The position numbers were made by a program, and so were the translations under genes. The notes beneath the pieces were generated by a model, which saw nothing but the letters and a program-made list of their open reading frames with translations, had not been told where the DNA came from and searched no databases. A stretch of DNA of 64,000 bases from Albugo candida (taxonomy: Eukaryota): assembly GCA_040437565.1 (NCBI GenBank), contig JBDOQK010000050.1, positions 186,001-250,000 on the forward strand, read 5' to 3'. Shown piece by piece: positions 3,522-22,400 of the stretch (within the stretch, counting starts at the first letter, position 1; every line of letters begins with the position of its first letter).

Positions 3522-5907
3522 ATGGACGCGAAACGCGCTCTTATTGCAGCCAATGAGCTGTTGGCTTCCGACGACATTATCGTTTCTGCAGGCGACCTTA
3601 ATGCATTAGCAAAGCCCCAAAGCGACAAGAAGAGTATTAAGCAAGACCGTCAGCCGCAAGCCGAAGAAGATGAAGACCGCACCGACAATCAAGAAGATGA
3701 GAGTTTCTTCTGCAACGAGTCCAATCAAGAGAAGACGACATTACTGAATGCTTCCAGAGCTTTTTCTGATGACTCTGACTCTTGTACACGCAGTTGGAAA
3801 GGTTTTTCATGGATTAGTGTGGGTGTACGTGCCTTAACACGCAAGAATAGACACAGAGTGCACCCCACTGGATCCTCTAAAGCTTCAAAANNNNNNNNNN
3901 NNNNNNNNNNNNNNNNNNNNNNNNNNNNNNNNNNNNNNNNNNNNNNNNNNNNNNNNNNNNNNNNNNNNNNNNNNNNNNNNNNNNNNNNNNTTGGCTTCCG
4001 ACGACATTATCGTTTCTGCAGGCGACCTTAATGCATTAGCAAAGCCCCAAAGCGACAAGAAGAGTATTAAGCAAGACCGTCAGCCGCAAGCCGAAGAAGA
4101 TGAAGACCGCACCGACAATCAAGAAGATGAGAGTTTCTTCTGCAACGAGTCCAATCAAGAGAAGACGACATTACTGAATGCTTCCAGAGCTTTTTCTGAT
4201 GACTCTGACTCTTGTACACGCAGTTGGAAAGGTTTTTCATGGATTAGTGTGGGTGTACGTGCCTTAACACGCAAGAATAGACACAGAGTGCACCCCACTG
4301 GATCCTCTAAAGCTTCAAAAGGACAAAAACAGCAGGATCGGCAAGTGGGAAGCTTATATCTGTATGTAAGCGTTCTACTAGTCCTTTTATCTGGGTCACA
4401 ATTGGGTTGGGAAATCACGCAACTCAATTTGAGCACATTTCATAGTCAAGATGATTGTGCACGAAGACCTATTCAAGATGGGAAATGCATCATATTTCCC
4501 GGTCATTCGAGTTTCCAGTGGGTTTTAGCGGTTGTTGCTTGGGTTGTAGGGGCAGCGTTCGGGTCGTTGAGCGCATCCAGTCCAGCTGATCGATTTGGAA
4601 GGAAGTTTGTTATATATGCTAATGCCATCCTGATGATTCTTGGGGCTGCCTTGCAGACATTTGCGCCAGCTATCTCAGTTTTCTCACTCGGTCGATTCAT
4701 TTCTGGATTGTGTTCCGGTTCCGCGACGACCATCGCGTCCATATTCCTGGCTGAAATTGGACCAGAACATCAACGTGCTAGTTTTGTGGTAGCGTTCCAA
4801 GTTGCTGGATCACTCGGACTGGTTGCTATCACATCAGCTCATTTTGCTGTTTCCGGCTCATCAACATCGTGGCGATGGATTATGATGGTGCCAATGTGTA
4901 TCGGTGGGATTCAGCTTTTGTGTATGCCAATCTTCCTAATCGAAAGCCCGACGTGGCTATTACAAAAACACAAATATCAACAAGCTGCAATTGCGTATCA
5001 AAAGCTGTACCGAGGAGGATCTTTTGAACAACTTCAAGCACAAGTACGAGCAAAACAGGAGGCTTCACGGCAGGCCGAATCGTCTCGTCCGTCAGGTCAA
5101 ATGAACACCTTACAATCACTGGCGGCGTTTTTTAGAGAGAGCACATTAACTGGGAATCGTGCCCAGTTTTACCTTTCGATTCTTCTTTGTATTGCTCGGC
5201 AATTTGGTGGAGTTTCAGCCGTCTTCTACTACTCCTCCAGCATCTTTACACGAGCTGGAATCTCAGATCCGCGAGTTGGCAATCTGATTCTTTCAAGTTT
5301 TAACGTCACGACTGTCTTTACGGTTTGTACGTTTATGAAGCACATACCACGACGAAAAGCTCTTTTGTTTGGAATCTCGGGCATGATTTTCGCATCCATT
5401 GGTATGACATTGGCTCTCATCCGTCAAAGTATGCTGGCCATTGCGTTCACCGCAATGTATGTCACCTGCAATTCCATGTCACTTGGGACGCTACCGTTTC
5501 TCGTGAGTGCAGAGATCTTACCGGAACATATTCGATGCAAAGGACTCAGTATTTCTTCGTGTGTGAATTGGCTGGCAAATTTATGCATTGGAATTGCTTT
5601 TCCCAGCATTGCTCAAGCACTTGGAAACTTTGCATTCACACCATTCACTATTCTTTTGGTCTTTTTCTGGCTAGCTTTGTATTCCTTCCTTCCAGAAACC
5701 AAAGGCAGAACCAGTGAGGAGATTCAGCTTGATTTTGTAGAGTCAAAAAGATCATTTTTTTGCAACCCGAAACAGGTCGGCTCCGTCTTTGATACGAAAC
5801 GGGAAGGAGCGCCTGGAAGTCTTTTTGCTAAACAAGCCGCACGACTACGTAGAGCGAGTATGGAGATGATACAGATAGCGATTCCGAGCATCAGTCAAAG
5901 TGCGTGA
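3522..5907 (+). CDS. MFS sugar porter (GLUT-like) transporter, ~651 aa after collapsing the gap duplication
   Basis: DRFGRK, ESPTWL, QFGGVSAVFYYS and LPETKGRT sugar-porter motifs with many TM segments; 3561-3890 is repeated at 3991-4320 across the N gap, so the start is 3522. Confidence 0.92.
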
Positions 5908-5970
5908 GAACAGCAGCGCTTGTTACGTCGGGTTGTATGGTTTTGATTATATATACATAGCGGCAGATGC

Positions 5971-7138
5971 CTACTTTTCAGCCGATATGGACGCAAAGCC
6001 GCTGACACTGCCCGTTTTGAATGGTCTGAGAATGACAGAAGCGAAGCCAATTCGTATCAACGTATTCTGAATGTTCTCGAAAAAAGATCGAGCTTGGGCA
6101 AGGATGGTTTGATCCACTTCTACACTCGTTGGATTGACACTGCGCTCTATTTCGTGTACGGGTACGTACCCACCGCTGCTCGATTTTTGGTCAGAAACCG
6201 AACCCGAAGGTTTACGGATTCAGGAAGTGCTAGTAATTGTCGAATATATGCTTCTGCTTTTTCGACTCGTTTCAGATGGTCCTGTGCCCAACACAGCGTG
6301 AGATGATGTCCTACATCTGAAGACTATGATTTACTTTTGTAGCTTCTACTCCATAAGCGAGTCTTGAGCGCAGACAAGGAGATGCAGCCACATTCCAATT
6401 CGACAATCCAATAAACCTCGCAATCTCTCGCACTTGTGCTTTTGATAAGTTGTCCAATGGACTCACCACATCAAACTCATCGGCCGCGACTAATCCTGTG
6501 GGTGCATTGGATCGAATTGACTAAAGATCGCTCTTCTAAACGCTCATAGCCAGTACCTAGTCGCGTTGGATCCACTCGGTCGTCGGCGTTTGTGCCGTTG
6601 TATATTGTCGCTTTTATTTTGCTGAAAGATCCGATCGCTTCAGAGCTCTATGATGCCGGCTTTGAAAATCAAATAAATGGACTGTTGGAAATATGCTTTA
6701 CCATCATGGCTGTTTTTGTAAATAATGAAATATGATGCATCGTCGTGTAGAGATTGGTTTTGCAGTGGTAGCAACTAAAGGGTCTGTTTACATTTCAGAC
6801 ACAGCTATGTGCAGTGTACGCAACCTTCTTCCTCGATTCTCGACGTAATTGTTATCTTCACCTTCTGTGGTGTTACATTCCACCAATTGGATTCCAATTT
6901 CATTCGCTATTGTACGTGCTCGTTCGACTTGATCTATTGACACAGCTGGCGAGATGCCCAGGACTGCAGCGCTCTCTAATGGGAACACACGGTGTACAAG
7001 AGACGCTACAAGCGAAGAGTCGACACCTCCGGAGAAGGCAACAATACTCGGAAGTGAGCTACATTGATTTGATTGTATCTTTCGCATGTTTGCATGACGA
7101 ATACGATGCAGTAAAGCATCGATTCTTGCCGATGTCAT
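5971..7138 (-). CDS. larE: LarE-like PP-loop ATP-dependent sulfurtransferase, 299 aa, 6 exons
   Basis: Exons 7138-6825, 6774-6702, 6647-6557, 6495-6335, 6281-6170, 6119-5971, all GT-AG and phase-consistent (900 nt). Motifs AFSGGVDSS, CYHCK, NGTNADD, SPL..LSKAQVREIA, ASPCLRSR..YG, RVEKAE, NLRVR, PFKTGSV. Confidence 0.88.
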
Positions 7139-7295
7139 GACGGTAAGTACGACGCATTTAATATAAAGGTTCGTCTGGTGCGGTTTATAATGAGCTCGTG
7201 ATCACTGAACCGTAGAGCCATTCAAAGGAGTGCTCTTGATTGGCTTGGAGGCAGCGGATATTCCTTGTTCCCGACACTTTTTACACGCAGAAAAT

Positions 7296-7891: not shown

Positions 7892-8271
7892 GCACAAACT
7901 AACAGCATTTCTTGATAATATCCGCGCCTTGAATGAATTGATCGAAAATGTGACTCTGCATCTGNNNNNNNNNNNNNNNNNNNNNNNNNNNNNNNNNNNN
8001 NNNNNNNNNNNNNNNNNNNNNNNNNNNNNNNNNNNNNNNNNNNNNNNNNNNNNNNNNNNNNNNNGAATTGATCGAAAATGTGACTCTGCATCTGTATACT
8101 ATACGTCCATTCCTTCAAACTATACACATACACACAAAGGCACTCAACCAGCGTCTTTCGTGACCGTTACGCAACTGCCAACAGCACTTGCAATTCACGA
8201 CATAAACCGCTCTTTCAAAAGCGTCGCAACATGACCGTTTCCGTGGATAGTGACTCATAACTAAGTCTTCA

Positions 8272-10137
8272 ATGTCAATGTCGCTCATGCACGTGCGAGT
8301 ACACGTGTTGGTGTGTAGTCTACTATTATTTGCCAATGGCATTTCAGCGCTGACGTTGGACCACTTGACTTGGAACCTCACATCCGATACATTTTTCTTA
8401 ACACAGCCGCTCTTTGATATTGGTAGAATTGTGATCAGTGACGTGTTTCCGGAGCCGTCCATTCCACCCAAACAGCTTTGGGAAATCGCTAAGCAATATA
8501 CACCCAATTCGCGTGGATTCGTGTTGCCGCTCTTTGATGGAAATTCGCATTTAGGCTTCTCGCTACTTATCGATTTCGAGCGTAAATTCGGCCTCAAGAT
8601 ACCTGTGGAAGTACCGCATTGTGGAGACTTGGAGATTGAAATTCAGGAGCAATTGAAAGTACGATTTCCTTCTATACGTATATTTGATGTGTGCGATCTC
8701 GCAGCTTTGGCTGAATACAATGGCCAGAAAATATTTTGTCAGAATGTGAATCATTGTCATGAGATATTTCGCTCGTTTCTGATTGGTGTGCTGGCGGTTG
8801 TGTACTCCACATTTGATGAAATAATGCTTCTAGACGCAGATACGCAGTATTTTACCGACCCCACAGAGACCTGGGAGCTGGAGGATGTGAAGCAAACTGG
8901 GGTGTTGTTATTCCGCGATCGAGTCGTTGAACCGTATAAATTCCTATTAGAGCCGACCGAGGAAGAGCATCAAGGATTGCGTCGGCTTCATCGATTCTTG
9001 GGAGCATTTGATCCACGTCCTTATCGTTTTCTCGGTCATGTCGCCAGTGAGCCTGCACCTGACGAATGGGTCGCTACTATGTCATCAGAATCTTTTCGCC
9101 ACTACAAACCATCCAAATTGGCGATGACAACACATGCTTGGAATTTCCTATCAGGCCATAATATCGATTCCTCGTTCGTTTTATGGAGCAAAGGAAAACA
9201 ATCACGAGCAACGACAATTCTCGCTTCTTTTGTTTCGTTGAATGGAGTTCCATCTCCACCTTCTTATGGCGATAAAGAGTTATTTTTCTTTGCATGTGAG
9301 CTCGCAGAAACCTCGTATGCGGTTTCCAAGTACGGAGCTGGAAGTATCACAAGCAATGAGCCCATACTGAACAATACTGCGCTTTGTGGAGATGCACTTC
9401 ACTTTCTACCCATTCGTCAGCCGTCACAAAATTGGTCACTTTCCGCGAACGATGGCGTCCCATTCTACACAAATGGCGATTATATCAGCAGCTGGGATCC
9501 CGAACACGATAAGCTGTTCCATACAATGTCAACGCCAGCAAACTTCCATCTAAACGTATTGAAGCGCTCTAAAACGCATGTCGGATGTCTACAGCGTCGC
9601 GTGGTTGTAAACGCATCCGAAGCAATGCGAAATGCCATTTCAGAGCNNNNNNNNNNNNNNNNNNNNNNNNNNNNNNNNNNNNNNNNNNNNNNNNNNNNNN
9701 NNNNNNNNNNNNNNNNNNNNNNNNNNNNNNNNNNNNNNNNNNNNNNCGCAGAAACCTCGTATGCGGTTTCCAAGTACGGAGCTGGAAGTATCACAAGCAA
9801 TGAGCCCATACTCAACAATACTGCGCTTTGTGGAGATGCACTTCACTTTCTACCCATTCGTCAGCCGTCACAAAATTGGTCACTTTCCGCGAACGATGGC
9901 GTCCCATTCTACACAAATGGCGATTATATCAGCAGCTGGGATCCCGAACACGATAAGCTGTTCCATACAATGTCAACGCCAGCAAACTTCCATCTAAACG
10001 TATTGAAGCGCTCTAAAACGCATGTCGGATGTCTACAGCGTCGCGTGGTTGTAAACGCATCCGAAGCAATGCGAAATGCCATTTCAGAGCGAATAAAAGC
10101 TCTGCGAGAGCTTCAGTTTGGATTTATTGGACGCTGA
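8272..10137 (+). CDS. Putative alpha-mannosyltransferase (GT71-like), ~473 aa after collapsing the duplication
   Basis: N-terminal hydrophobic leader, FDEIMLLDAD (DxD), TGVLLFRDR, IDSS, YGDKELFF; 9303-9646 repeated at 9747-10090. Confidence 0.82.
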   Translation: MSMSLMHVRVHVLVCSLLLFANGISALTLDHLTWNLTSDTFFLTQPLFDIGRIVISDVFPEPSIPPKQLWEIAKQYTPNSRGFVLPLFDGNSHLGFSLLIDFERKFGLKIPVEVPHCGDLEIEIQEQLKVRFPSIRIFDVCDLAALAEYNGQKIFCQNVNHCHEIFRSFLIGVLAVVYSTFDEIMLLDADTQYFTDPTETWELEDVKQTGVLLFRDRVVEPYKFLLEPTEEEHQGLRRLHRFLGAFDPRPYRFLGHVASEPAPDEWVATMSSESFRHYKPSKLAMTTHAWNFLSGHNIDSSFVLWSKGKQSRATTILASFVSLNGVPSPPSYGDKELFFFACELAETSYAVSKYGAGSITSNEPILNNTALCGDALHFLPIRQPSQNWSLSANDGVPFYTNGDYISSWDPEHDKLFHTMSTPANFHLNVLKRSKTHVGCLQRRVVVNASEAMRNAISEXXXXXXXXXXXXXXXXXXXXXXXXXXXXXXXXXXAETSYAVSKYGAGSITSNEPILNNTALCGDALHFLPIRQPSQNWSLSANDGVPFYTNGDYISSWDPEHDKLFHTMSTPANFHLNVLKRSKTHVGCLQRRVVVNASEAMRNAISERIKALRELQFGFIGR

Positions 10138-10436
10138 CTGTCACAGACGCTGCAATTTTGGGTGCGTTTGTTGAAAGCTTTTTACGCGATGAGAAAGTCG
10201 AGGATGTTACCCTTCTTTTAGGGAAGGGGATCCGCATGTATTGCAATGCTTATTGTCGGTGTAAAGAGGTCTATAGCGTGTAAAACATGAAAACAATAAG
10301 CGCATTTTGGCGGCGAAACGATTTTTTGTCTCTTGCAATGGATCTTTACATCGCTTTCTGATTGGTGGATCCTTCAAATAGGATGATTTGATTCGCTGAT
10401 AATCGCCTAACTGGCACGACGATCGAAATCTTTGCA

Positions 10437-13400
10437 ATGGAACGCATTTGGAATCATCCAGCGTTTCTTGGCGTCTTTGGTGACCCGTACCTGCGTCAAA
10501 CTGTACTGGAAAAAAATGGATGTCCTCTATCCTGTCACCAGTCCATAAATCTTCTCTGTGAGCTTCTTACAGCCGACACAATAGACTCTGCAATCGACCT
10601 GTCTCTAAACACACTTCAGCGAGCATTTGTAATTGATATTCTAATCCCAAAACTAAGGCTCTGCAGCCAATGGATACATAAATCGCTTTCTGTGACAGAT
10701 AGCATCAGTTTCACTCAATTCCTGCGCGAGTGGCAGACGTATTTGCATGAAATACAGCCCGGAAACTCGATTCTAATTCCATCAGGATACAACCAAAAAG
10801 ACCAGCCGAGTCATTTGCTCTTTTTCGTGCTACAATGCGTACAGAAAGATACTTTGGACGACACGTACGACCTCACAATATGCAATAAAGGCCCAGGAGC
10901 TGATCTCTATCATCCAATGCGTATCCAAGCAGACGGCTACTGTGACAAGCTTCGAGTCAAGTCGTCTATAACAATACATAATATCAATGGACACAGAATG
11001 CTCGATCCGACGTTTTGGGCATTGGCGTTCTCGTTGTGGCTTAAAAGACCGGCTTCCGAGTATCATCGCGTCGAGGTTTTGTACGATGTATTACTTCCTT
11101 GGCTTTCAGGCGAGTCGTTGCTTCCAATCGATATCCACGAGTTTGACGAGGCAGCCAGTGATTATCACAGTGTCCAACGAAGCGGTCTTGGCTATTTCAA
11201 AAGCCTCATAGAAGCGATACGGTTCTTATGTCTCACTGCGTCGTACGATAACAAACCGATTTTCCAGCCGAAAGAATTTAAATTCGGATTGCTATTCCGA
11301 CTTTGCGTTCAATTTGGTCGCAAATTATTGGATTCTTTGAACAGTTTGCAATGCACAACGAGAAATATCAGTCAGATTGCGAGTTTGGATGCTTTTCGAC
11401 TGCTGTACGGCCTCACGCTGATGGATTCCCTTCAAAAGAATATCACTTTAACATCGTTTGATGGATCTTCACATCGAATTATCGCCTTATACTTTGCAGA
11501 TTTCGCGTGTAAACGATTGACAAACAATTTGGTTGCACTCAGTGAGAGCTTGAGCGCCAAGAACAAGGAATTCATTGTGGTCGTCGTGTCCTTAGATCCT
11601 GATCCGATCGCGTTCCAGATACTGACAGCCTCTCTGCCGACGGAACGATGGCTCATCATACCATTTTCAGAGACAAATGCTCGTTCAAAGCTCGTGGAAT
11701 TGCTTCAGATTCGAAAAGCACCGTCCCTTTTCTTCCTAAATGAACAAGATCGCAATGTGATAACGTGTCAAGGAACACGAATCCTCGAGAATGATCCCAA
11801 TGGAGAGCATTATCCGTGGCACAACGCAAGCAAAGATCTATCACTGGAGCCAATAACGTCCTCAGAATACGCACTCATTGAAATGGCGATCCGGCAGCTC
11901 GGGAAGAAGGCGGTCGTACACCACAATTCGAAACACCTGAGCTCAAAAGGACTCGAGGAAGTTTATAATCTCATTCAGAGTATCGATAAAGCGGTCAAAG
12001 AGCTTCAGAAACTTCCAATCGAGTCCTCCAAATCTCCCGAGGCAAACGATACGCAAAAGCGAGACACCGCGCTATTCCGACGAGAAATCCCATTCATACA
12101 ATATTCCAACATCGAACTGCTTCCATTCTCAGCAAATATGGACGCGTTTGCTGGTGATACACACACTGGAGGACTTGAGGCCCCACAGAATACGCTCATT
12201 ATACCCAAACACGTCGACTCCATAATGATCGCTATCGGGTCCCTCGTACGATGTCAAAAGCTCTGCAAGCTCTTGATCGAGCGATCTCTCGATACTTCTT
12301 TTTCATCCAAAGTATTCCTCCACCATCAAATCATTCGAACGATCACACAGCTCTTTGTGGAAGCTCTTCCTGTTCCAATTATCGAAAACAAAAGTGTCTC
12401 CAACATTTGGGGAGAGCCGTTATCTCACAAATTACAACTTTGGTGTCTTCGACTGATCTCCGAGCTAACGATTATCTTTGCTTATGCGTGGCAATCCATT
12501 GAGCATCCAACTCGCTCCTTCGATGCCGAGAGATCACTTACAGCGATATGCGGCCTTGCGATCTTTGACGCTGTGATGCGAACGCCAGCACACGATGACC
12601 CAATGGTACTTTCGTTACTACTCAATGGCTCCTTCCATGGAAGCAATTCGATCTTTGTCTTGGCACATACGTTCTCTTCATCGAATCTCTCGATCGCAAA
12701 GACGACACATGCCATGGAGCTTGTACATCCTTCCTTTGCAGTCACACGCGGGCGTGTATTGGCGTACTTTGACGCATTGGATGGCGCAAATGCCGGGTCT
12801 CCAAGCCGTCAACTCTTCACGTATCACATGCACGATGACACCATTGAGATGGACAAGTACTCGTCGACATCACAATGCGTGTATCAATTGGTGGAGCGGT
12901 ACGGGATCTCTCTCATAAACCCCGACGACCCGAATCCACCGAGTGAGATGGAAGCGTTGATGGAATGGTTTTGCTCGTCGACGACTTTATGCCCGGAAGT
13001 CGCACTCACAAGAGACTTTGTACTGCTTTCCAAGTTTCTAATGACAATGGAGTCGCGTGAAACAGAGCTTCTATATCGACGTAAACCGCATTCCATATGG
13101 CAAAATTGGCAGCTGACGCATACGGATGCAAGCGAACACGCAACGCGACAGAGAACGCGAAACTTTGATTCCGTTGTGGCCCATGCGTTCAAGTGGAAAG
13201 TCACAAACATCCGAGGACACGATCAGAATATCGCCGACATTCAGGTGCATTTATTTGGGGATCGAAAAGTGGTCTTTAGCGAAGGGATGTTGCTTCAAAG
13301 TCCTTCGGCGATCGGCGCATTGATGGCGGGTATCTCTTCTAAGAACGGGCTCACAGATGTCACAGAGGACGATATTCTCCACGCGGATGCATTGCCGACG

Positions 13401-16400
13401 TTCGACGGGACTCTTTCTATGGAGGAAGCAGAGTATCTATGGAGCTTTATGACAGTTCCGTACACGCGAATACCTCTCCTTCTCAACTTTTTCGCCTCTG
13501 GAGATCGCGTCATGTATCTGTTCCACCGCACGCTTCAGCGAATGCTTTATTCCGTTCTCTTCGAAGTGGGAAATTGGGTCCATAATGAAGACAAACGTAT
13601 AGAGAGCGTTCCTCTCCGCACATCGCAGGATCATTTGGGCACAAGGAATGGAGCTCTATTGAACGAGCTGCTTCATGCGGCCAACGCTGTGCTGTCGCCT
13701 GTGGAGACCATCTTGAAAGCCTCGATCGATCTTGCGCGATGCTCTGTGTACTCTCCAAGCGCTCCATTTATCTTTTTTGCCATCAAACTGTGTGCTGACA
13801 TCACGCGATACACACATTACGCATTGCGATTCCGTGGCAATAGCAGCGAATTGGAGCATTCGATTGATTTCCTATCGGAATATCTCGCAGCATTTGCATT
13901 GGAAACACTGGAGAAATGGCTCGAGGAGGCAGAAACCGAACAGGATATCTCCACAGCGTGCATCATACATTCGTATCGGACGTTGTGCGTTGCCACTGTA
14001 TACGCTGGAAAGCTCACCGACGAGCGTATCGTTCAGCGCATGGGAGCGATTGTGTACGTTCGGAATTGGCACCGATTTGGCTCTTCTTCCGCTGAGATCA
14101 ATCCATCGACGCAAACGTGTCCATTATCAGCTCAACATCGTCTTCTTCGATGGCTGCAAGCACACGGAATCAATACGGAAAGCATCTCTTCCGAAAGTAT
14201 GGAAACGTATATGAAAGACCGACCTTTGTATCTCAAAATTGGGCTTCAAACCGTTCGAGTTCCCAATTTTCAATCTCTATCGCCACACACGAAACGCTGT
14301 TCGGTTCGCGTGCTTGAAGCCGAAATGGTGGACGTGTTGCATGCACAAAGTCGCGATATTGTCGCGTTTATGGACGCAATGGATGTGCCACGAATGCATA
14401 GTGTTCTCGATAGAATCGTACGGATCGCATTACGTTCATCCGACGCTACGGAATCGTGGTCGTGGCTTCCTGTCGACGTCATGAATTGCCCGGGACGGTA
14501 TCGCTGTGAGCGTACGAACCTCCAACTCGATCTTCAGACTGGAGAAATGCTCTGGCGACACGATGCATTACGACCCGTGCCGGATGGAATGACACAACAC
14601 GAAGAGTATAAGCAGATTTTCGGCGATCGATCGCTTCATTGTGGCGTTGTCTCTCGTCAGGAGCATCGCTATTGGGTCAGTATCGTTGGAACACCATACG
14701 AGCTCTTGGAATGGGATGCACCGAGCGATGAACAAGGTCTTGAAGCTCCGATTCCGTGTCAGTGTCGAGCCACAAACGACAGCCACCTTCCAATGTATTG
14801 GGAATGCAGCGCTTGCACGTGTTCCAATTACAACGGCGATCAAGTGAGCGCTACTTGTCAGGTCTGCGGCAATCCACGCGTCTGTCAAAGTCCGAGACAA
14901 CCGGAAGACTTGGGCTTTTACTACCAGAGCCAAAAGTACTCGCGTGCGTTTGATCCGTTCAGCGATTCGATGGAGGCGCATGAGCAATGGATCGGTCAGT
15001 TCTTACGTAAAACGAAAGAGATCGTGTACCCGGAAGAGAAGGAAGGCTTCCCATTCACACTGTTCCTTCCAATAAATCCAATAGACCCAAATTGCAACGT
15101 CGTTCATCTGCTCGCATTCGACCAACAAACAGCTTTGGAGACGTTACCGACGTACAAACAAGTCATTTTGTATCGCGTCTTTGGTCTCGTTCACATATTC
15201 GCTTTGATATCGCACGGTCGACGCGTGTACCGACAACAGATATTCACTTTAAACACACGCATTTCGTTGCATGAATTTGAGATCGAAACGGATGCAATTG
15301 GGAGCGCTATCCATTCCTCTCCGACTTTACAAGCGCGTACGTGTCAGCCTGCAGGAAGCAGTTTGGTCATTCGGCGATACAACGAGACACTGCGAGGTAG
15401 CGAGGAATTCGTTCCCTGTCGTTTACTGCAGGGAATCATACCAACTGTATTGCTGGAAGCGTTCACATTTTGGCTCGGCGATGACAACATACTTCGTGGA
15501 GATCCATTGACCACCGACTCGCAATGGTTTCGGTATCGTATCGAAATGAATTGTGATCGAAAAGTACTCATTCGAAAGCCTATTTCGTCGTCTTTTTCAA
15601 TGATAGCGACAGGAACACCAACACTTCCGTCGTTGCCTTTCCAATCGCATTGTGACGCGAACACTGACGACAATGTGGTGGAATTGATGGCGATGGGCTT
15701 TTCCAACGCTGCGTGTCGTCTCGCATTGAAAGAGACTGGGAACAAGCTTGACGATGCGGCTGAATGGCTATGGAATGATGAGAATCGAGATCGAATACGG
15801 GATGCCAAAGAGAACGATGAGATGTGTGTGGAGAATGAATCCAAAGCTTTACTTTTGAGTTTGGGATTCTCAAAGTGTGCTGTGGAGCACGCACTTTATC
15901 TCTTCGATCACGACACTGCTTTAGCGACAGCGTGGCTCTCGCATCCCGAGAACAAAGCAGAGATCGAACGCGTCGAGCACAGAGTTTCACCGGCAACGGA
16001 GAGGACGGAAATGACACCGGAAAGCGTGTTTTCCGATACGAACGTCGCCAACGACTCCAACGACGAACTCTATTTACTGAACCCATTGAACGTTCCCAAT
16101 GATTCCACCGATTTGCTACGTCTGATTTCGCTGATAACGCGCTTGGAGAATCTCTCCCATGTTCTCATTTGGTGTTTGGAAAGTCACATCGAATGCATCG
16201 AATTCCCGCGACTCCAATTAACGCTTTTCCCACAAATTGTAAAGACATTTGATGACAATTTGTATGTGAAATTGTTTTTGAACGAGCAAAACGAATGGTT
16301 TGTAAGCAGCAAATCCTTTGACGTTTGCATCGATACGATGTGTCCACAGCCTTTACAGCGAATTCCAACGCATTTCAAAGACAATCAGAAGCTTTTCGAA

Positions 16401-19400
16401 TGGGCACAAATCCTTCCCGAAGCGATTTTCATCGAGTCTTTCTCACACGATCTCCAATTACTGTGTCCGAATTACGACGTCTATCGTCCTGTGGTAAGAA
16501 ACGAAGCCTTCTCAGTCGCTGTGGCATCGAATCGAAGCTCGAAAGGATGGATGCACGCTATGGAAACGCGATATTATCTCTACGACATCCATTCCAGCAA
16601 CACATTCCTCCTCCCGTCTTCATCGAGCGCGTCATTGTACGTCTTGTTACTGGCGATATTGACTCGACAATACACCAAAGCCATGCAAATGATCCCAACC
16701 TGTACGATCGACACCACAATGACACCCGAAGAAGTATGGATTCTGAAGCAATTCCGTCAATCTGTCGACGATCGAGCTCCTGATGCCTGTGCGTGTCGAC
16801 TCCAATTGACGCTTGCAATCGGCGATACGAATCAAAGCGTTCCGTGGGATGTTTCTGAAGAATTATACGATTACATTGTCACCCAAAAGCACGTCAGCGC
16901 GCTATGTCGTCTGTCGGTACGCGACGAAGTCGAACTCTTTTCAATGGCAACGGAACGCATGGGAAAATATCAGCTTTTTCACGCTCGGGAAGCGTATTGC
17001 CACTTGCACAGTGGAAATAGCGTTCCACGTGTGTCGTACAATCCATTTCTTCGCGTTGGAGGCATCGCATGGCTTCAAATGCGAGCGTATACGAAAGCGT
17101 ATCTCCATACAAACGGAAAACGACTTTCAATGGTGCGATACGTTCGACCAAATGCCGAGCCTTTAGCGCTTCTTTGGGACACCAAATGGATGCGTGATGA
17201 CGTTTGTGGAAGTACCAGCAGCTTGGGGTTTTTGTATTTGTATGAGATTCTCTGTGGCGCGCTACCGACTGAAATGTCGCGAGAACACGCGATATCGTTT
17301 GTGGAATTGATGACGCGAACGATGCATTTGAAAATGTCGCGTTGGGGTCGTTGTACGGATCTCCATGGAAAGCACGCGTCGTTGGCGATATCTCTGCTTG
17401 CAATGATGCTTCCGGATCGATCTCACGTCGATTCTCGATCGATTGTATGGCCTCAGCTGTCCATCGACGAGGAAACGAGTCGATTGCTAATGACAGGCGT
17501 GCAGGTGTATGCGGACGCTGCGGACAAGTCTGTTGTCAGAGCGTTTTTCGACAATTTGCATACGACAATGGAAATGGTGTTGTTGTCGGAATCGCATACT
17601 CGCACTCGCACTCGCATTGAAAGTCTTATCGCACGTCTGACGACATCTCATTCCGTCCATTTGAAAGACTGTCCGACGCCTTTATTGGAATTTCGAGCGA
17701 GTGACACACTTTGTGATTCTCTGACTTTCAAAGCCAAAGACGTGGATCCCGTGCATCCATTCAAACATGTTTTCAACGTTTTCGAGTTTGTGGAATTCGC
17801 GGAGGAACACAACAAAGTCTTTGAGAAGCTTCCATTTGATCTTTCACAGCATCCCGTCGCGAAAAGCCCAACAGCGAAAGATCTCCTCGCACGTTTGGAA
17901 GAAGATATCGCCAACCACGCAGCCAAAATGCTCCATCGCCAGCAAGCGTACGTGATCGGTCTCACTCCACACGCTTTATCGACTATTGACATTCTGCCAA
18001 CGTGTCGGAACGCATGTATTCGCCTCGAAACGCTCTGTGGAAAATGCGTTGAGATGGAAGCACAGGATCGAATCCAAGTGACCGATAGGATCGTCGAGTT
18101 GGAGAAGATGGCCAACAGTGTGCTTCCAATCGAAAATGACGTCACGATCGAGCAGTATCGACGCTACGTTCTCGAGAAACGAAGCGGAAGGTATCCATTT
18201 GTGACATTTGATTTCCTCATTTCACTTTTAATGGCTCGTGACGCGTCTTTGGATCTCTTTAAACGGAATCGATTCTCTCCATTTCAAACAGAGAAAGCAA
18301 TGCAACGCTTACGGAATCAATTGATCGACATTTGTCTTCTTTGTGGTCGAATCATTCAATCGCGAGCGATCTTCCGAGCTGTGCATTCTGCAAAGACTTT
18401 ACTCGAATCCGTTGCATTGTCTCCATCTTCCGACACGCGCGAGCAACTCCTTCAAAGTTCCAAGCATTTGGCTGCATTACTGACATCCACACGTTCGTAT
18501 TTCAGCGTTCAGAAGCGTGGAAATTGGCATTTTGATCCGAGATTTCTGGTGTTTGAATTTGTGTTTGATCTCACACTTCGAAGACGACAAGTCGAAATGA
18601 TACAAAGCTTTCTCGCCAGCGTGAATTCCAATCAATCGCGTGTCCAGCAGATGATTATGGGTGCCGGTAAAACGACTGTGGTGGGTCCATTGCTGACGCT
18701 CATGCTCGCTTCCAAAGAACAGCTCGTCATGCACGTCATGCCGACCGCGTTATTGGAGCAAACACGTCGCGTGCTGAGGAATCGCTTCAGCACAATTGTC
18801 TTTGGGAAACGTATTCTGACATTGAATTTCGATCGAAATGAAGCGCAAGACGCAGTGGGTATCACGCGAATATATCGCAAGTTGATTCACGCTCAACGCG
18901 ACACGGACGTCGTGTGTGCTTGTCCCGAGACGATCAAGTCATTGATTCTCAAGTTTATCGAGCTCTTGCATTCCGTCGAAGAAGCCACGACGTCCAATGA
19001 CGAAAATGTATGCTTTCAATCGAAACGCTTTAGAAAAGTGCTTGAGAATCGATCGGAAATGGCCGATAGTTTGCATCCAATTTTACATTTATGGAAATCG
19101 ACTGTGCTGATTATGGACGAAGTCGATGTGCTCCTTCATCCATTACGTTCCGAGCTGAATTTCCCGCTTGGAGATAAACATTCGATCGATTTGGCTCCAA
19201 TTCGATGGGAATTTCCAATATTTCTGTTGGATTGTGTCGTTGGGCCTTTGAAAGCGACGACGTACGGGTCGGAATTCCAGCGAGCGCTCACGCGGCTGAA
19301 GAAGGTCATCGAGGATGGATATGAATCCCACGCATTACAGCGGTTCCCGCATTTGATTCTGTTGGATACTGCTTTCTACACAATTAAAATGGCTCCAATT

Positions 19401-22400
19401 TTGGCGGAATTAACAGTTCAATGGATCTCCACACACATTTCAATCGCTCCATCGACGTGTCTCCGTCTTTGCACGTACCTCCACGCGCCTCCACCAGCCG
19501 TCTTTGACGTTGATTTCTCGACATATTCGTTCCAATTAGTGAATCTCGCACGCGAATGGATTGTTACTTTCCTTCCGCATGTGCTCTCGAAAATCAATCG
19601 CGTTTCGTACGGCTTACTGGACAATGAATGCCCAAGCAACAACAAGTCGACAGGTTCCCGTGGTCTCCTCGCAGTCCCATTCATCGGGAAAGACGTTCCA
19701 AGCCGTTCTTCTGAATTCGCGCATCCCGATATTCTCATTGGAATGACCGTCTTAGCGTATCGATACGAAGGGCTTCGAATGTCCGATTTCAGTCGAGTTA
19801 TCTCTCAGCTGCAACACGACTTTAGTCGACAAATTGGACCGCGTAGCCAACGTCCTGCATCCAAAACATTCCAGACTTGGATCCATATCGCTCAATCTCA
19901 AATGACTTTTCAAAGTGTTTCGATACTTCCGCTTTCACTCATTCAAATGGACGATTCTGCTCAGCAAATGCAATTGTTCTCACTGATGGCAACGCTCGTT
20001 CCAGTGATCCATTACTATCTCTGTCAGCACGTATTTCCCACTTGCATTCGCTTCCAAAAACTTCAGATCTCAGCATCGGGTTTCGATTTAGGGAGTTCGT
20101 TCCTCTTTGGAAAGCGTATCGGTTTCTCGGGGACGCCATCCAATGTGCTTCCAATGGATTTAAACGCATGTCGATACGAGCCATTAAGTGATGGAGGAAT
20201 CTTTCACGCACTCACGGACCCGAAAATCGTCACAATCGAACGGAAATGGAATTGGAATGCGACGACTTTATTGCTTGACATTGCACGAGCAAAGCCTCCG
20301 TTCCACGCGCTCATTGACACTGGCGCATTGATCACTGGATACGATAATGCACAAGTAGCCGAATTCCTTCTCGCTCACCTTCCGATAGAGATGGAAGGCG
20401 TCGTGTTTCTGGACCGAGACGATCGTCCAATGATACTGTTACGCGACCATACGACTCCATTGGCGTTGTCTCAATGTGATGTGAATGCCTCTAAACGCTT
20501 CACATTTTACGATCAAGTGCATACGACAGGAATGGATATCCGTCAATGTGTGAATGCACGGGCTGTTTTGACGCTGGGGAAGGATACGACATTCCGGGAT
20601 TTCGCACAGGGAGCGTATCGAATGCGTGGAATCACAATCGGTCAATCGATCCATTTGTACTTGATCCCTGAGGTCGAATGTCGTATCCATTTGGAGAATG
20701 AGAATATATCGAAAGAGATCGATTCGCTTTGTCGGATTGCAGCGTGGCTTTTGATCAATTCGATGCGTACGGAATCGATGCAATTTGTGCAATTATCCAT
20801 CCAGGAGCTTCACACTATCTGGAGGAAACGAGCGTTGCGTGCTTTGATGGAAGAGATCGAGACAGCAACTGCCGATGGCGTATCGAATGCCAAGAAACGC
20901 GTAAAGCGCTTTCTCCAACCGCCAGAATTCGATACGATCAAAGATGTAAATGAGAACGCCTCCGAGCGTCAGACGAATTGGCTTGGTACGTGCATTCAGC
21001 AATTCCGTCAGGAGATTTCGTACAGCATCGATGAATGTCTTCCCGACCGAAAAAGCTTTCTCGATACGATTGAAAAGCTCATTGTAAAACATGAGCAATT
21101 TCTGACGGAAAAAGAGGATTGGGAACGTGTCCGAGCCATTGAAAAGCGATTCCACACTGTTGGCGTACATGAGATCGATGTCGTAAGCGGATTCGAACAC
21201 GAGTACGCACAATTGAATGCTCAAGTCGTCCACGAAAATGAGATCGAGACAGAGGAACAAGCCGAGCATCAAGTCGAGCAAGAAGAGCAGAAAATGAGTG
21301 CGTTCGCACGCGATGAAGAGCATCCAATCTGTTGGGCTGTGGATGTCTTACGTCGCTCTCCAAAAACGTTTGAGGCGAACACGCCGTTCTATCGATTATC
21401 GTCTTTCCAAATGCATTCTCAATGTCCAAAAATCCATTTTCCATTGAATTTATACCTTTCCAACAATTTCCATCGATTTCATTGGGTCGGAATTGGCGAA
21501 CGTCGTCTGAGGAATTGCAGTCTTCTTTTGGAATGGTCTCCTTCTGTCATCCACGACACATACAAAGCGGCTGTCGACTACTATTTCCATCAACGGGAGC
21601 TCTATCACAAGGAGGATCCCGGGCTTCTTGCAGTCCAATCGCTTCAGAAAGCAGAAGCGCTTTTCCAAAGGCCGCAGATGCTTCCTTCCGAATTGCTTGA
21701 GCAATGGGAACGTCTTTGGTCACAATTGCCGATTTACGTGCTCATTGTATCGCTGGCGGAAGGAGAGACACTCCGACGGATTCTGCATCAGCGTCATTCA
21801 ATTACCAGGTGGAGCTTTCTTCGGGTTTGTATGGTGGATGGAACAATGATCGACGATGATCCTCCGGGCCTTTGGTGGGTCGGGCTCTTTAGAAGCAAAC
21901 AGATGGATTTACAGGAAAATACAAAGATGATACAATGTGCCCGGTACTTTAACAATGAGATGTATTATTCGAGCGACGAATTGGAGGTTCTTTTGAAAGC
22001 ATTGGACACGGATTCCGTTCAGAATCGGCAAAAGTTCTTTGAGGAATGCATGGGCTGTCGGCGTCGCGAGCGTCATTTGTATGGTGATACGCCATTGGCT
22101 AAAATATTTACCTCTACGNNNNNNNNNNNNNNNNNNNNNNNNNNNNNNNNNNNNNNNNNNNNNNNNNNNNNNNNNNNNNNNNNNNNNNNNNNNNNNNNNN
22201 NNNNNNNNNNNNNNNNNNACGCCATTGGCTAAAATATTTACCTCTACGAATGAATGGCACCTTATAAATGATCGAGCTCGATTTCAGCGATTCCAACGAG
22301 CGCTGTGTGAGAAAGAAGCATTATTGAGTAATGCAGCGTCAGATAGCCCCATTCCGATCCGTCCGGGGAGGTATTTAGTGTCCGCTTTGCGTCAATATGA

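What the first reader, a model, noticed from the sequence alone, without database searches (positions are those of the whole stretch)
5971..7138. Intron-containing eukaryotic LarE: possible nickel-pincer cofactor chemistry in an oomycete
Seen: five clean spliceosomal introns rebuild a 299-aa protein with a full LarE-like motif set, between a sugar transporter and RPL27, so it is not bacterial contamination. Established: LarE inserts sulfur into the nickel-pincer nucleotide cofactor (with LarB and LarC) used by LarA racemases/epimerases and is characterised in prokaryotes; some LarEs sacrifice a Cys, others bind a [4Fe-4S] cluster through three cysteines. Inference: CYHC plus SPCL gives three Cys, suggesting the Fe-S type; its retention in a probably obligate biotroph implies either an NPN pathway or a stand-alone sulfur-transfer role. 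No larA/B/C is visible in this window.
Basis: partly seen in the sequence, partly recalled or inferred. Interest (0 to 1): 0.72.

Follow-up and report, generated by a model that had tools for sequence, protein, structure and literature searches.

The report
Nickel-cofactor gene larE in white rust
This is a real intron-containing gene of a plant-parasitic water mould for the enzyme that adds sulfur to an unusual nickel cofactor; the rest of the pathway is elsewhere in the same genome, and a related water mould was already known to have an enzyme that uses this cofactor.

Summary
Confirmed. Six minus-strand exons (7138-5971; five GT-AG introns of 50-61 nt) give 299 aa, identical to a database protein named Albugo candida hypothetical protein. 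It passes the LarE cut-off (TIGR00268, 192 bits against 150; next family 36), and its model best matches [4Fe-4S]-LarE (8cnz). C106/C109/C200 form the CXXC-C motif, with Pro at the sacrificial-Cys position. The same genome has intron-rich larB and larC and a larA of the D-gluconate 2-epimerase (GntE) branch, each on a different contig. Three LarA family searches missed that larA; a GntE-type protein query found it. So LarE most likely makes nickel-pincer nucleotide (NPN) for a mannonate/gluconate epimerase; a stand-alone role is not needed. Orthologues occur across oomycetes, diatoms and brown algae and form one clade, so this is not an Albugo oddity or a recent transfer. A Phytophthora GntE was already shown active with NPN (PMC11770544), and this scan earlier noted this genome's larB. 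I found no characterised eukaryotic LarE in the library searched. RNA support is partial: one junction well bridged, one weakly. Verdict: new member of a known kind.

The parts
6825..7138 (-). larE exon 1 (Met1-Arg104; PP-loop SGGVDS at 7033-7016)
   Evidence: TIGR00268 E 8.8e-14 for the exon alone
6775..6824 (-). intron 1, 50 nt, GT..AG
   Evidence: the joined ENRGRSCYHCK aligns without a gap to homologues; not seen spliced
6702..6774 (-). exon 2; CYHC (Cys106, Cys109) at 6773-6762
6648..6701 (-). intron 2, 54 nt, GT..AG; the frame through it holds a stop
   Evidence: joint 6647/6702 in X1, short side 29 letters
6557..6647 (-). exon 3 (GTNADD...TRL)
6496..6556 (-). intron 3, 61 nt, GT..AG
   Evidence: X2 pieces end at 6497 and 6556, X1 reads through it
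6335..6495 (-). exon 4; SPCLRSR at 6382-6362 (Pro199 = sacrificial-Cys position, Cys200 = third cluster ligand, Ser203)
   Evidence: TIGR00268 E 1e-12; alignment to 5udq and 8cnz
6282..6334 (-). intron 4, 53 nt, GT..AG
   Evidence: joint in X1 and X2
6170..6281 (-). exon 5; Arg239 and Arg241 (substrate-phosphate arginines) at 6206-6198
   Evidence: residue roles from PMC9283937
6120..6169 (-). intron 5, 50 nt, GT..AG
   Evidence: homologues align across it; not seen spliced
5971..6119 (-). exon 6 to the TAG stop (GF...FKTGS end typical of LarE)

Best explanation
The gene encodes a native, vertically inherited LarE: the second enzyme of nickel-pincer nucleotide (NPN) synthesis. Steps: (1) LarB (contig C7) makes P2CMN from NaAD. 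(2) This LarE uses its SGGVDS loop to adenylate each carboxylate with ATP, and delivers sulfide held on the free iron of a [4Fe-4S] cluster bound by Cys106, Cys109 and Cys200; it is catalytic rather than sacrificial and gives P2TMN. (3) LarC (C33) inserts nickel. (4) NPN is loaded into the GntE-branch LarA (C53), which interconverts D-mannonate and D-gluconate, probably feeding gluconokinase and the pentose phosphate pathway. Shown here: gene structure, family membership, fold, conserved residues, presence of open-frame models for the other three genes, and distribution. Inferred from bacterial and Phytophthora work: cluster binding, catalysis, cofactor synthesis in vivo, the substrate and the metabolic role.
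For: TIGR00268 192.1 bits against cut-off 150, next family 35.7 bits. Best PDB sequence hits are L. plantarum LarE (1.3e-17) and 8cnz (1.5e-7). AlphaFold model pLDDT 91.8; all listed Foldseek rows (to rank 50) are LarE entries; VIA wide search ranks [4Fe-4S]-LarE 8cnz first (Z 26.5, rmsd 2.4, 249 aligned), L. plantarum LarE second (Z 24.6, rmsd 3.0, 247 aligned), GMP synthetase third (Z 21.0, rmsd 3.8, 251 aligned). In the alignment Pro199 faces sacrificial Cys176 and Cys200 lies one residue on, the shift described for Fe-S LarEs; Ser203, Arg239 and Arg241 face Ser180, Arg212 and Arg214 (PMC9283937 passages). These residues and the three Cys are invariant in 36 of 36 oomycete rows aligned; 216 of 220 listed homologues carry PP-loop + CXXC + third Cys. 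Own genome: larB (290-aa model, 7 introns, 44% to a Clostridium LarB), larC (at least 434 aa, His-rich and HFHE motifs, 3' end uncertain beside a gap), larA/GntE (472-aa model, 7 introns, 52% over 423 columns to P0382). P0382's only PDB hit is 4NAR, which PMC7583248 identifies as GntE2. The Albugo model keeps the D/R, both His, E-V loop, Lys, Ni-His and W..K motifs. P. nicotianae LarAH15 epimerises D-mannonate with added NPN, kcat 111 per s, KM 9.4 mM (PMC11770544). Gluconokinase fragment with a 60-nt intron-like gap on a 307-bp contig.
Against: No biochemistry on this or any eukaryotic LarE was found (paper searches). The Phytophthora enzyme was assayed with NPN made in vitro, so synthesis in an oomycete cell is not shown. 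Three of five junctions were not seen spliced, and RNA status of the runs is a guess. The bacterial route to mannonate was not found (UxaC, UxuA), though family searches of this genome gave false blanks for LarA. The Albugo larA could not be compared with LarAH15 directly, because no tool supplied that sequence. The four genes are unlinked, so context gives no functional link. The larB, larC and gntE models are mine and were not checked against RNA.
Confidence: 0.85

Rival explanations
1. LarE makes the cofactor, but its main client in the cell is not (only) the GntE-type LarA, or that LarA acts on another sugar acid. Candidates would be an NphT-like aldo-keto reductase, an ornithine cyclodeaminase using the dinucleotide form NPAD, or an unknown fold.
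For: Non-LarA clients exist (PMC13524815). About 15% of prokaryote genomes analysed have larBCE without larA (PMC11796402). No UxaC or UxuA match in this genome, so the bacterial source of mannonate is not evident. An obligate biotroph keeping four genes and nickel for one epimerase is notable (inference).
Against: A LarA-family client with intact catalytic motifs is present, and its Phytophthora relative is narrowly specific for gluconate/mannonate among the substrates tested. TIGR00300 hit only profile positions 5-79, in a 1031-aa frame that reads as the lysine-ketoglutarate reductase/saccharopine dehydrogenase bifunctional enzyme (name recalled from the sequence, not given by a call). Aldo-keto reductases were not searched.
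Confidence: 0.25
2. Stand-alone sulfur transferase acting on another substrate (tRNA or a small molecule), unlinked to NPN.
For: PP-loop Fe-S thiolases share this chemistry (PMC9283937). The gene is unlinked to other lar genes.
Against: larB, larC and larA are all present. The P2CMN-phosphate residues are kept. Separate TilS and TtcA-like genes exist in the genome. TtcA/TtuA/QueC/MnmA structures score Z 12-14 against 26.5 for LarE.
Confidence: 0.05
3. Sacrificial-cysteine LarE as in L. plantarum.
For: The TIGR00268 family name says 'sacrificial'; the best PDB sequence score is the L. plantarum protein.
Against: Pro199 occupies the Cys176 position; CXXC is present where L. plantarum has WYYA; the Cys is shifted by one. 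The structure search ranks the [4Fe-4S] form first (lead of 1.9 Z units).
Confidence: 0.04
4. Bacterial contamination, a recent transfer, or a decaying relic.
For: LarE is mainly studied in prokaryotes. Introns 1, 3 and 5 were read through in the contigs shown.
Against: Five spliceosomal introns of the same size as those of neighbouring RPL27. Orthologues at 46-59% identity across oomycetes. Oomycete clade SH-aLRT 98 inside a eukaryote clade at 100, with Saprolegniales apart from Peronosporales/Pythiales/Albugo. Catalytic residues invariant.
Confidence: 0.02

Closest known systems
[4Fe-4S]-dependent LarE of Thermotoga maritima (PMC9283937) and mmLarE-[4Fe-4S] (PDB 8cnz, 8cp3, 8cp4)
   Same: PP-loop SGGxDS, CXXC-C motif, third Cys shifted one residue from the sacrificial site, Ser/Arg/Arg phosphate site, whole-length fold (Z 26.5, rmsd 2.4 over 249 residues).
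   Different: Nuclear gene with five introns, not in an operon; about 25% identity to 8cnz; a 10-15-aa low-confidence insertion near residues 121-140; aerobic eukaryotic host; cluster and activity untested.
Sacrificial LarE of Lactiplantibacillus plantarum (PDB 5udq and others)
   Same: Fold (TM 0.73-0.76), PP-loop, Ser180/Arg212/Arg214 equivalents, best PDB sequence hit.
   Different: It lacks CXXC and donates Cys176; here that position is Pro and three Cys are present.
Oomycete NPN system: Phytophthora nicotianae LarAH15, D-gluconate 2-epimerase (PMC11770544)
   Same: Same client branch (GntE) is present in this genome; P. nicotianae also has a LarE orthologue (P0405, 50% identity).
   Different: The paper characterises the client with NPN made in vitro; in the parts read it does not test eukaryotic LarB, LarC or LarE, and Albugo did not occur in its supplement text.
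Bacterial gntE-lar clusters (Catenovulum plasmid: uxaC, TRAP, gluconokinase, larA/GntE, larC, larE, larB)
   Same: Same four lar genes plus a gluconokinase.
   Different: Genes scattered over separate contigs; UxaC and UxuA not found by family search.

Membership tests
LarE (TIGR00268) | Whole-protein score above the curated cut-off and above other PP-loop families | tested here: met
   192.1 bits against 150; next 35.7 bits
LarE (TIGR00268) | PP-loop SGGxDS | tested here: met
   SGGVDS 36-41
LarE (TIGR00268) | P2CMN-phosphate residues (Ser180, Arg212, Arg214 of L. plantarum) | tested here: met
   Ser203, Arg239, Arg241 in the alignment; invariant in 36 of 36 oomycete rows
LarE (TIGR00268) | LarE fold over the full length | tested here: met
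LarE (TIGR00268) | larB and larC in the same genome | tested here: met
   the second LarB hit is PurK-PurE
LarE (TIGR00268) | ATP-dependent conversion of P2CMN to P2TMN | not testable with these tools
   needs an enzyme assay
Fe-S type LarE | CXXC-C motif with the third Cys one residue past the sacrificial site | tested here: met
   Cys106, Cys109, Cys200; Pro199 faces Cys176 (definition from PMC9283937)
Fe-S type LarE | Bound [4Fe-4S] cluster required for activity | not testable with these tools
   needs reconstitution and spectroscopy; Cys distances in the model were not measured
Sacrificial LarE (L. plantarum type) | Single donor Cys at position 176 and no CXXC | tested here: not met
   Pro at that position, CXXC present
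Other PP-loop families (NadE, GuaA, AsnB, MnmA, QueC, TilS, TtcA) | Profile score above their cut-offs | tested here: not met
   listed ones score 35.7 bits or less, all under cut-off; QueC, TilS and TtcA not listed at E 0.001 for P0001
Complete NPN system with a LarA client (GntE branch) | LarA homologue with cofactor-binding Arg/Lys/His, catalytic Asp/His/His/Lys, and EV/S loop plus Trp signature | tested here: met
   C53 gene, PPDFTR, LGTH, PHEV, NYNKN, SHF, WLGNK; signature from PMC7583248
Complete NPN system with a LarA client (GntE branch) | NPN made in the cell and epimerase active in vivo | not testable with these tools
   needs metabolite and enzyme work

The most novel reading that the evidence does not exclude
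A single ancient eukaryotic lineage of Fe-S LarE shows that oomycetes, diatoms, brown algae and some green algae build an organometallic nickel-carbon cofactor themselves. It is kept even in an obligate biotroph in which the bacterial route to mannonate is not found, so it serves an undescribed and possibly essential step (a different sugar acid, or a second non-LarA nickel enzyme), perhaps split across compartments, since diatom LarEs and Albugo LarB carry basic N-terminal extensions. That would add a new nickel demand in marine algae and a drug target absent from host plants.
Probability: 0.25. Interest if true: 0.72.

Novelty: new member of a known kind. Interest (0 to 1): 0.38.

Why it matters
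It completes, in one eukaryote, the gene set (larB, larE, larC, larA/GntE) needed to make and use the nickel-pincer cofactor, which turns the published in-vitro Phytophthora result into a testable in-vivo pathway. It is a ready candidate for a first eukaryotic LarE assay. Retention across saprobic, necrotrophic and obligate biotrophic oomycetes suggests the reaction matters, in line with the published suggestion of a fungicide target. A practical lesson: Pfam and NCBIfam LarA profiles miss the intron-rich GntE-branch gene, so claims of 'larBCE without larA' in eukaryotes need a GntE-type query.

Tried and rejected
Orphan larBCE (no LarA, unknown client): my working idea after blanks with Lar_N, LarA_C and NF033504; refuted. 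Canonical LarAs score only 25-36 bits against the spliced Albugo model, against 443 for the GntE-type query. A Paenibacillus LarA homologue (P0112) taken first as a GntE query belongs to another branch (no PDB hit; no similarity to P0382); built on it led nowhere, and that branch was not searched for in the own genome. Zixibacterial LarAs were canonical type and were not used further. NPAD ornithine cyclodeaminase: only a partial linker-domain hit. UxaC and UxuA: no match, weak evidence given the LarA false blanks. The search for related loci in prokaryote genomes returned 1 weak locus of 75 candidate stretches, so no donor lineage was identified; the tree has long-branch warnings among prokaryotes and thin sampling, and names no donor. 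No run was on record as RNA. Introns 1 and 5 unspliced in contigs: may reflect overlap with plus-strand RPL27 and transporter transcripts or pre-mRNA; contigs cannot show absence. Mitochondrial targeting of the Albugo LarE: no N-terminal extension beyond other oomycetes, not supported. Cluster-member look-up could not be made. Two papers asked for by recalled DOI were not held and nothing is taken from them. Look-ups of earlier findings by words and by sequence gave nothing relevant. No complex prediction was run.

Full report
OBSERVATION. The finding lies on the minus strand. Reading three frames and the splice signals gives exons 7138-6825, 6774-6702, 6647-6557, 6495-6335, 6281-6170 and 6119-5971, with five GT..AG introns of 50, 54, 61, 53 and 50 nt. 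Of 200,000 random sets of five GT..AG removals, 3 gave an open frame. A search with exon 1 returned P0001, a 299-aa protein named Albugo candida hypothetical protein, identical to my model. The neighbours are a sugar transporter and RPL27; RPL27 has introns of 50-58 nt.

RNA. No listed run was on record as RNA. I laid 4 of 24 listed runs. X1 and X2 (one study, guessed RNA) splice RPL27 and also join larE intron 4 (X2: 164 letters on the short side; X1: 29). X1 joins intron 2 with 29 letters on the short side, under the tool's 31-letter bar. Introns 1, 3 and 5 are read through in the pieces shown (4 pieces were not shown); X2 pieces end at 6497 and 6556, beside the ends of intron 3. X5 covers only short parts; X19 runs through without joints. 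So splicing is well supported for one junction, weakly for a second, and rests on protein homology for the rest.

WHAT IT IS. P0001 scores 192.1 bits on TIGR00268 (LarE; cut-off 150); the next family scores 35.7. Single exons also pick LarE first. PDB sequence hits are L. plantarum LarE (E 1.3e-17) and 8cnz (1.5e-7), then GMP synthases. An AlphaFold model from a 23-row alignment has pLDDT 91.8. All Foldseek rows listed are LarE. The wide VIA search ranks 8cnz, mmLarE-[4Fe-4S], first (Z 26.5, rmsd 2.4, 249 aligned), then 5udq (24.6), then GMP synthetase (21.0); the tRNA thiolases and QueC fall at Z 12-14. The genome holds one larE; the other three TIGR00268 hits are GMP synthase, TilS and a TtcA-like protein.

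WHICH TYPE. PMC9283937 (abstract and passages) defines the Fe-S type by CXXC-C, with the third Cys one residue past L. plantarum Cys176, and names Ser180, Arg212 and Arg214 as the substrate-phosphate site. In the alignment Cys106 and Cys109 stand where L. plantarum has no Cys, Pro199 faces Cys176, Cys200 follows, and Ser203, Arg239 and Arg241 face the three phosphate residues. All are invariant in 36 of 36 oomycete rows (35 with an oomycete name shown, one with the organism cut off; chosen from the listed hits). Of 220 distinct listed homologues, 216 have PP-loop, CXXC and the third Cys; 3 lack the third Cys and 1 the PP-loop. Cluster binding itself is inferred.

THE REST OF THE PATHWAY. larB lies on C7 and larC on C33; the second LarB hit is PurK-PurE. 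My models give 290 aa with 7 introns (44% to a Clostridium LarB) and at least 434 aa with His-rich and HFHE motifs; the larC 3' end lies by a gap and my last intron there is doubtful. Three LarA profile searches were blank, and I first read this as larBCE without larA. That was wrong. A LarA homologue from a Catenovulum plasmid cluster with uxaC and gluconokinase (P0382) has 4NAR as its only PDB hit, which PMC7583248 (passages and section 8) identifies as GntE2. With P0382 as query, four exon matches at 49-70% identity appear on C53. The spliced model is 472 aa with 7 GT..AG introns, 52% identical over 423 columns, with all catalytic, cofactor-binding and GntE signature motifs. Canonical LarAs score only 25-36 bits against it, which explains the blanks. 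A gluconokinase fragment exists. UxaC and UxuA were not found; TIGR00300 gave only a partial hit in an unrelated bifunctional enzyme. NphT-type aldo-keto reductases were not searched.

DISTRIBUTION AND ORIGIN. The full-length search found 4,117 proteins at E 1e-10 among 8,000 candidates scored and listed 120. Named top hits are Pythium, Hyaloperonospora, Phytophthora (including P. nicotianae and P. infestans), Peronospora, Peronosclerospora, Globisporangium, Lagenidium, Aphanomyces, Achlya, Saprolegnia and Thraustotheca at 46-59%, then Tribonema, Ectocarpus, Triparma, Rhizochromulina, diatoms and Mesotaenium. One entry (P0392) already carries a LarE-like name. A quick IQ-TREE (LG+G4, SH-aLRT only) of 62 rows that I chose (18 oomycete, 11 ochrophyte, 6 other eukaryote-source, 27 prokaryote-labelled, 20 of these labelled by my judgement) puts all 35 eukaryotic rows on one branch (100) and all 18 oomycetes on one branch (98), with Saprolegniales apart from the group holding Albugo. 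This fits vertical descent from before the oomycete-ochrophyte split. It names no donor: prokaryote sampling is thin, long-branch warnings apply there, the eukaryotic rows were picked by likeness to the query, and no topology test was run.

MECHANISM. Most likely (0.85): LarB makes P2CMN; this LarE adenylates each carboxylate and transfers sulfide from a three-Cys [4Fe-4S] cluster recharged by a cysteine desulfurase; LarC inserts nickel; the GntE-branch LarA uses the cofactor to interconvert D-mannonate and D-gluconate. Gene presence, motifs and fold are shown; the chemistry is inferred. The physiological substrate is the weakest link, and a second client is not excluded (0.25, overlapping with the main reading). 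A stand-alone thiolase (0.05), the sacrificial type (0.04) and contamination or relic (0.02) are unlikely.

WHAT IS KNOWN. PMC11770544 (passages, sections 4 and 5, and a term search of its one supplement file) says NPN-biosynthetic genes and LarA homologues occur in some unicellular eukaryotes, shows P. nicotianae LarAH15 to be a D-gluconate 2-epimerase with added NPN, states that all eukaryotic LarA homologues fall in the GntE branch, and proposes them as fungicide targets. Its supplementary tables held as pictures or not extracted may list more eukaryotic genes. PMC13524815 (abstract, section 4, parts 1 and 3 of section 5, section 10) and PMC11796402 (passages) describe non-LarA clients and larBCE without larA in prokaryotes. 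PMC13510736 was seen in passages only. Eight searches of the paper library showed no study of a eukaryotic LarE or of lar genes in Albugo; the library lacks most subscription papers. This scan earlier noted the larB of this genome with the same verdict (e1-7166754); I saw it after finding larB and the paper myself, rebuilt the gene, and did not test its transcription.

VERDICT. A real gene, correctly read by the first stage, and a member of the Fe-S type LarE family within a complete oomycete NPN gene set. New member of a known kind; interest 0.38. The value lies in the complete set, the wide stramenopile spread, the open question of what the epimerase does in an obligate biotroph, and the warning that standard LarA profiles miss the client.

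Noticed in passing
window 7143-7215 (+): A 73-nt GT..AG intron in the RPL27 5' UTR is joined in an RNA-like contig, so an upstream RPL27 exon ends 5 bases from the larE start codon and may overlap it antisense; larE and RPL27 are head-to-head.
   Followed up: partly
window 5907-5971: The sugar-transporter stop and the larE stop are only 63 bases apart, tail-to-tail; overlapping 3' ends may explain unspliced intron 5 in contigs. A sugar transporter beside a sugar-acid cofactor gene may be chance.
   Followed up: no
L005 (G000:C15, about 329000-332400, -): One open frame (1033 aa) holds a cysteine-desulfurase-like domain followed by a TtcA-like tRNA 2-thiocytidine synthetase domain (SufS E 4.9e-15; TtcA 208 bits, under its cut-off of 272): an apparent sulfur-donor/thiolase fusion in a eukaryote.
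   Followed up: no
L004 (G000:C1, about 1058000-1060000, -): TilS (tRNA lysidine synthetase) domain above cut-off in a 674-aa frame, probably organellar.
   Followed up: no
L014 3713-3800 (larB start) and diatom homologues P0015, P0018, P0039, P0069, P0479: The larB model has a roughly 30-aa basic N-terminal extension, and five diatom LarEs have 60-90-aa Arg/Ser-rich extensions that look like mitochondrial presequences; Albugo LarE, LarC and GntE have none. No targeting predictor was run.
   Followed up: partly
P0004: A LarE from the green alga Mesotaenium (by its database label) falls inside the eukaryote clade, at its base: the family may reach beyond stramenopiles.
   Followed up: no
L061 (G000:C7302:1-307): The only gluconokinase match lies on a 307-bp contig with a 60-nt intron-like gap, a sign that the assembly is incomplete for small genes.
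   Followed up: partly
window 10392-22232 (+): A very long frame (3946 aa stop to stop, running into a gap) with DUF3638, DUF3645 and UBA domains.
   Followed up: no
window 8254-10137 (+): Mannosyl_trans3 family glycosyltransferase downstream of RPL27, crossed by an assembly gap.
   Followed up: no
window gaps 3891-3990, 7965-8064, 9647-9746: Sequence right of each 100-N gap repeats sequence on its left (identical runs of 330, 30 and 66 bases): scaffolding overlap artefacts that duplicate the transporter's 5' end.
   Followed up: yes
L021 11387-12505 (Clostridium butyricum plasmid record): larB-larC-larE with a nickel/cobalt ECF transporter and an aldo/keto reductase but no larA in the 16.7 kb shown: fits the published NphT-type context.
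   Followed up: no
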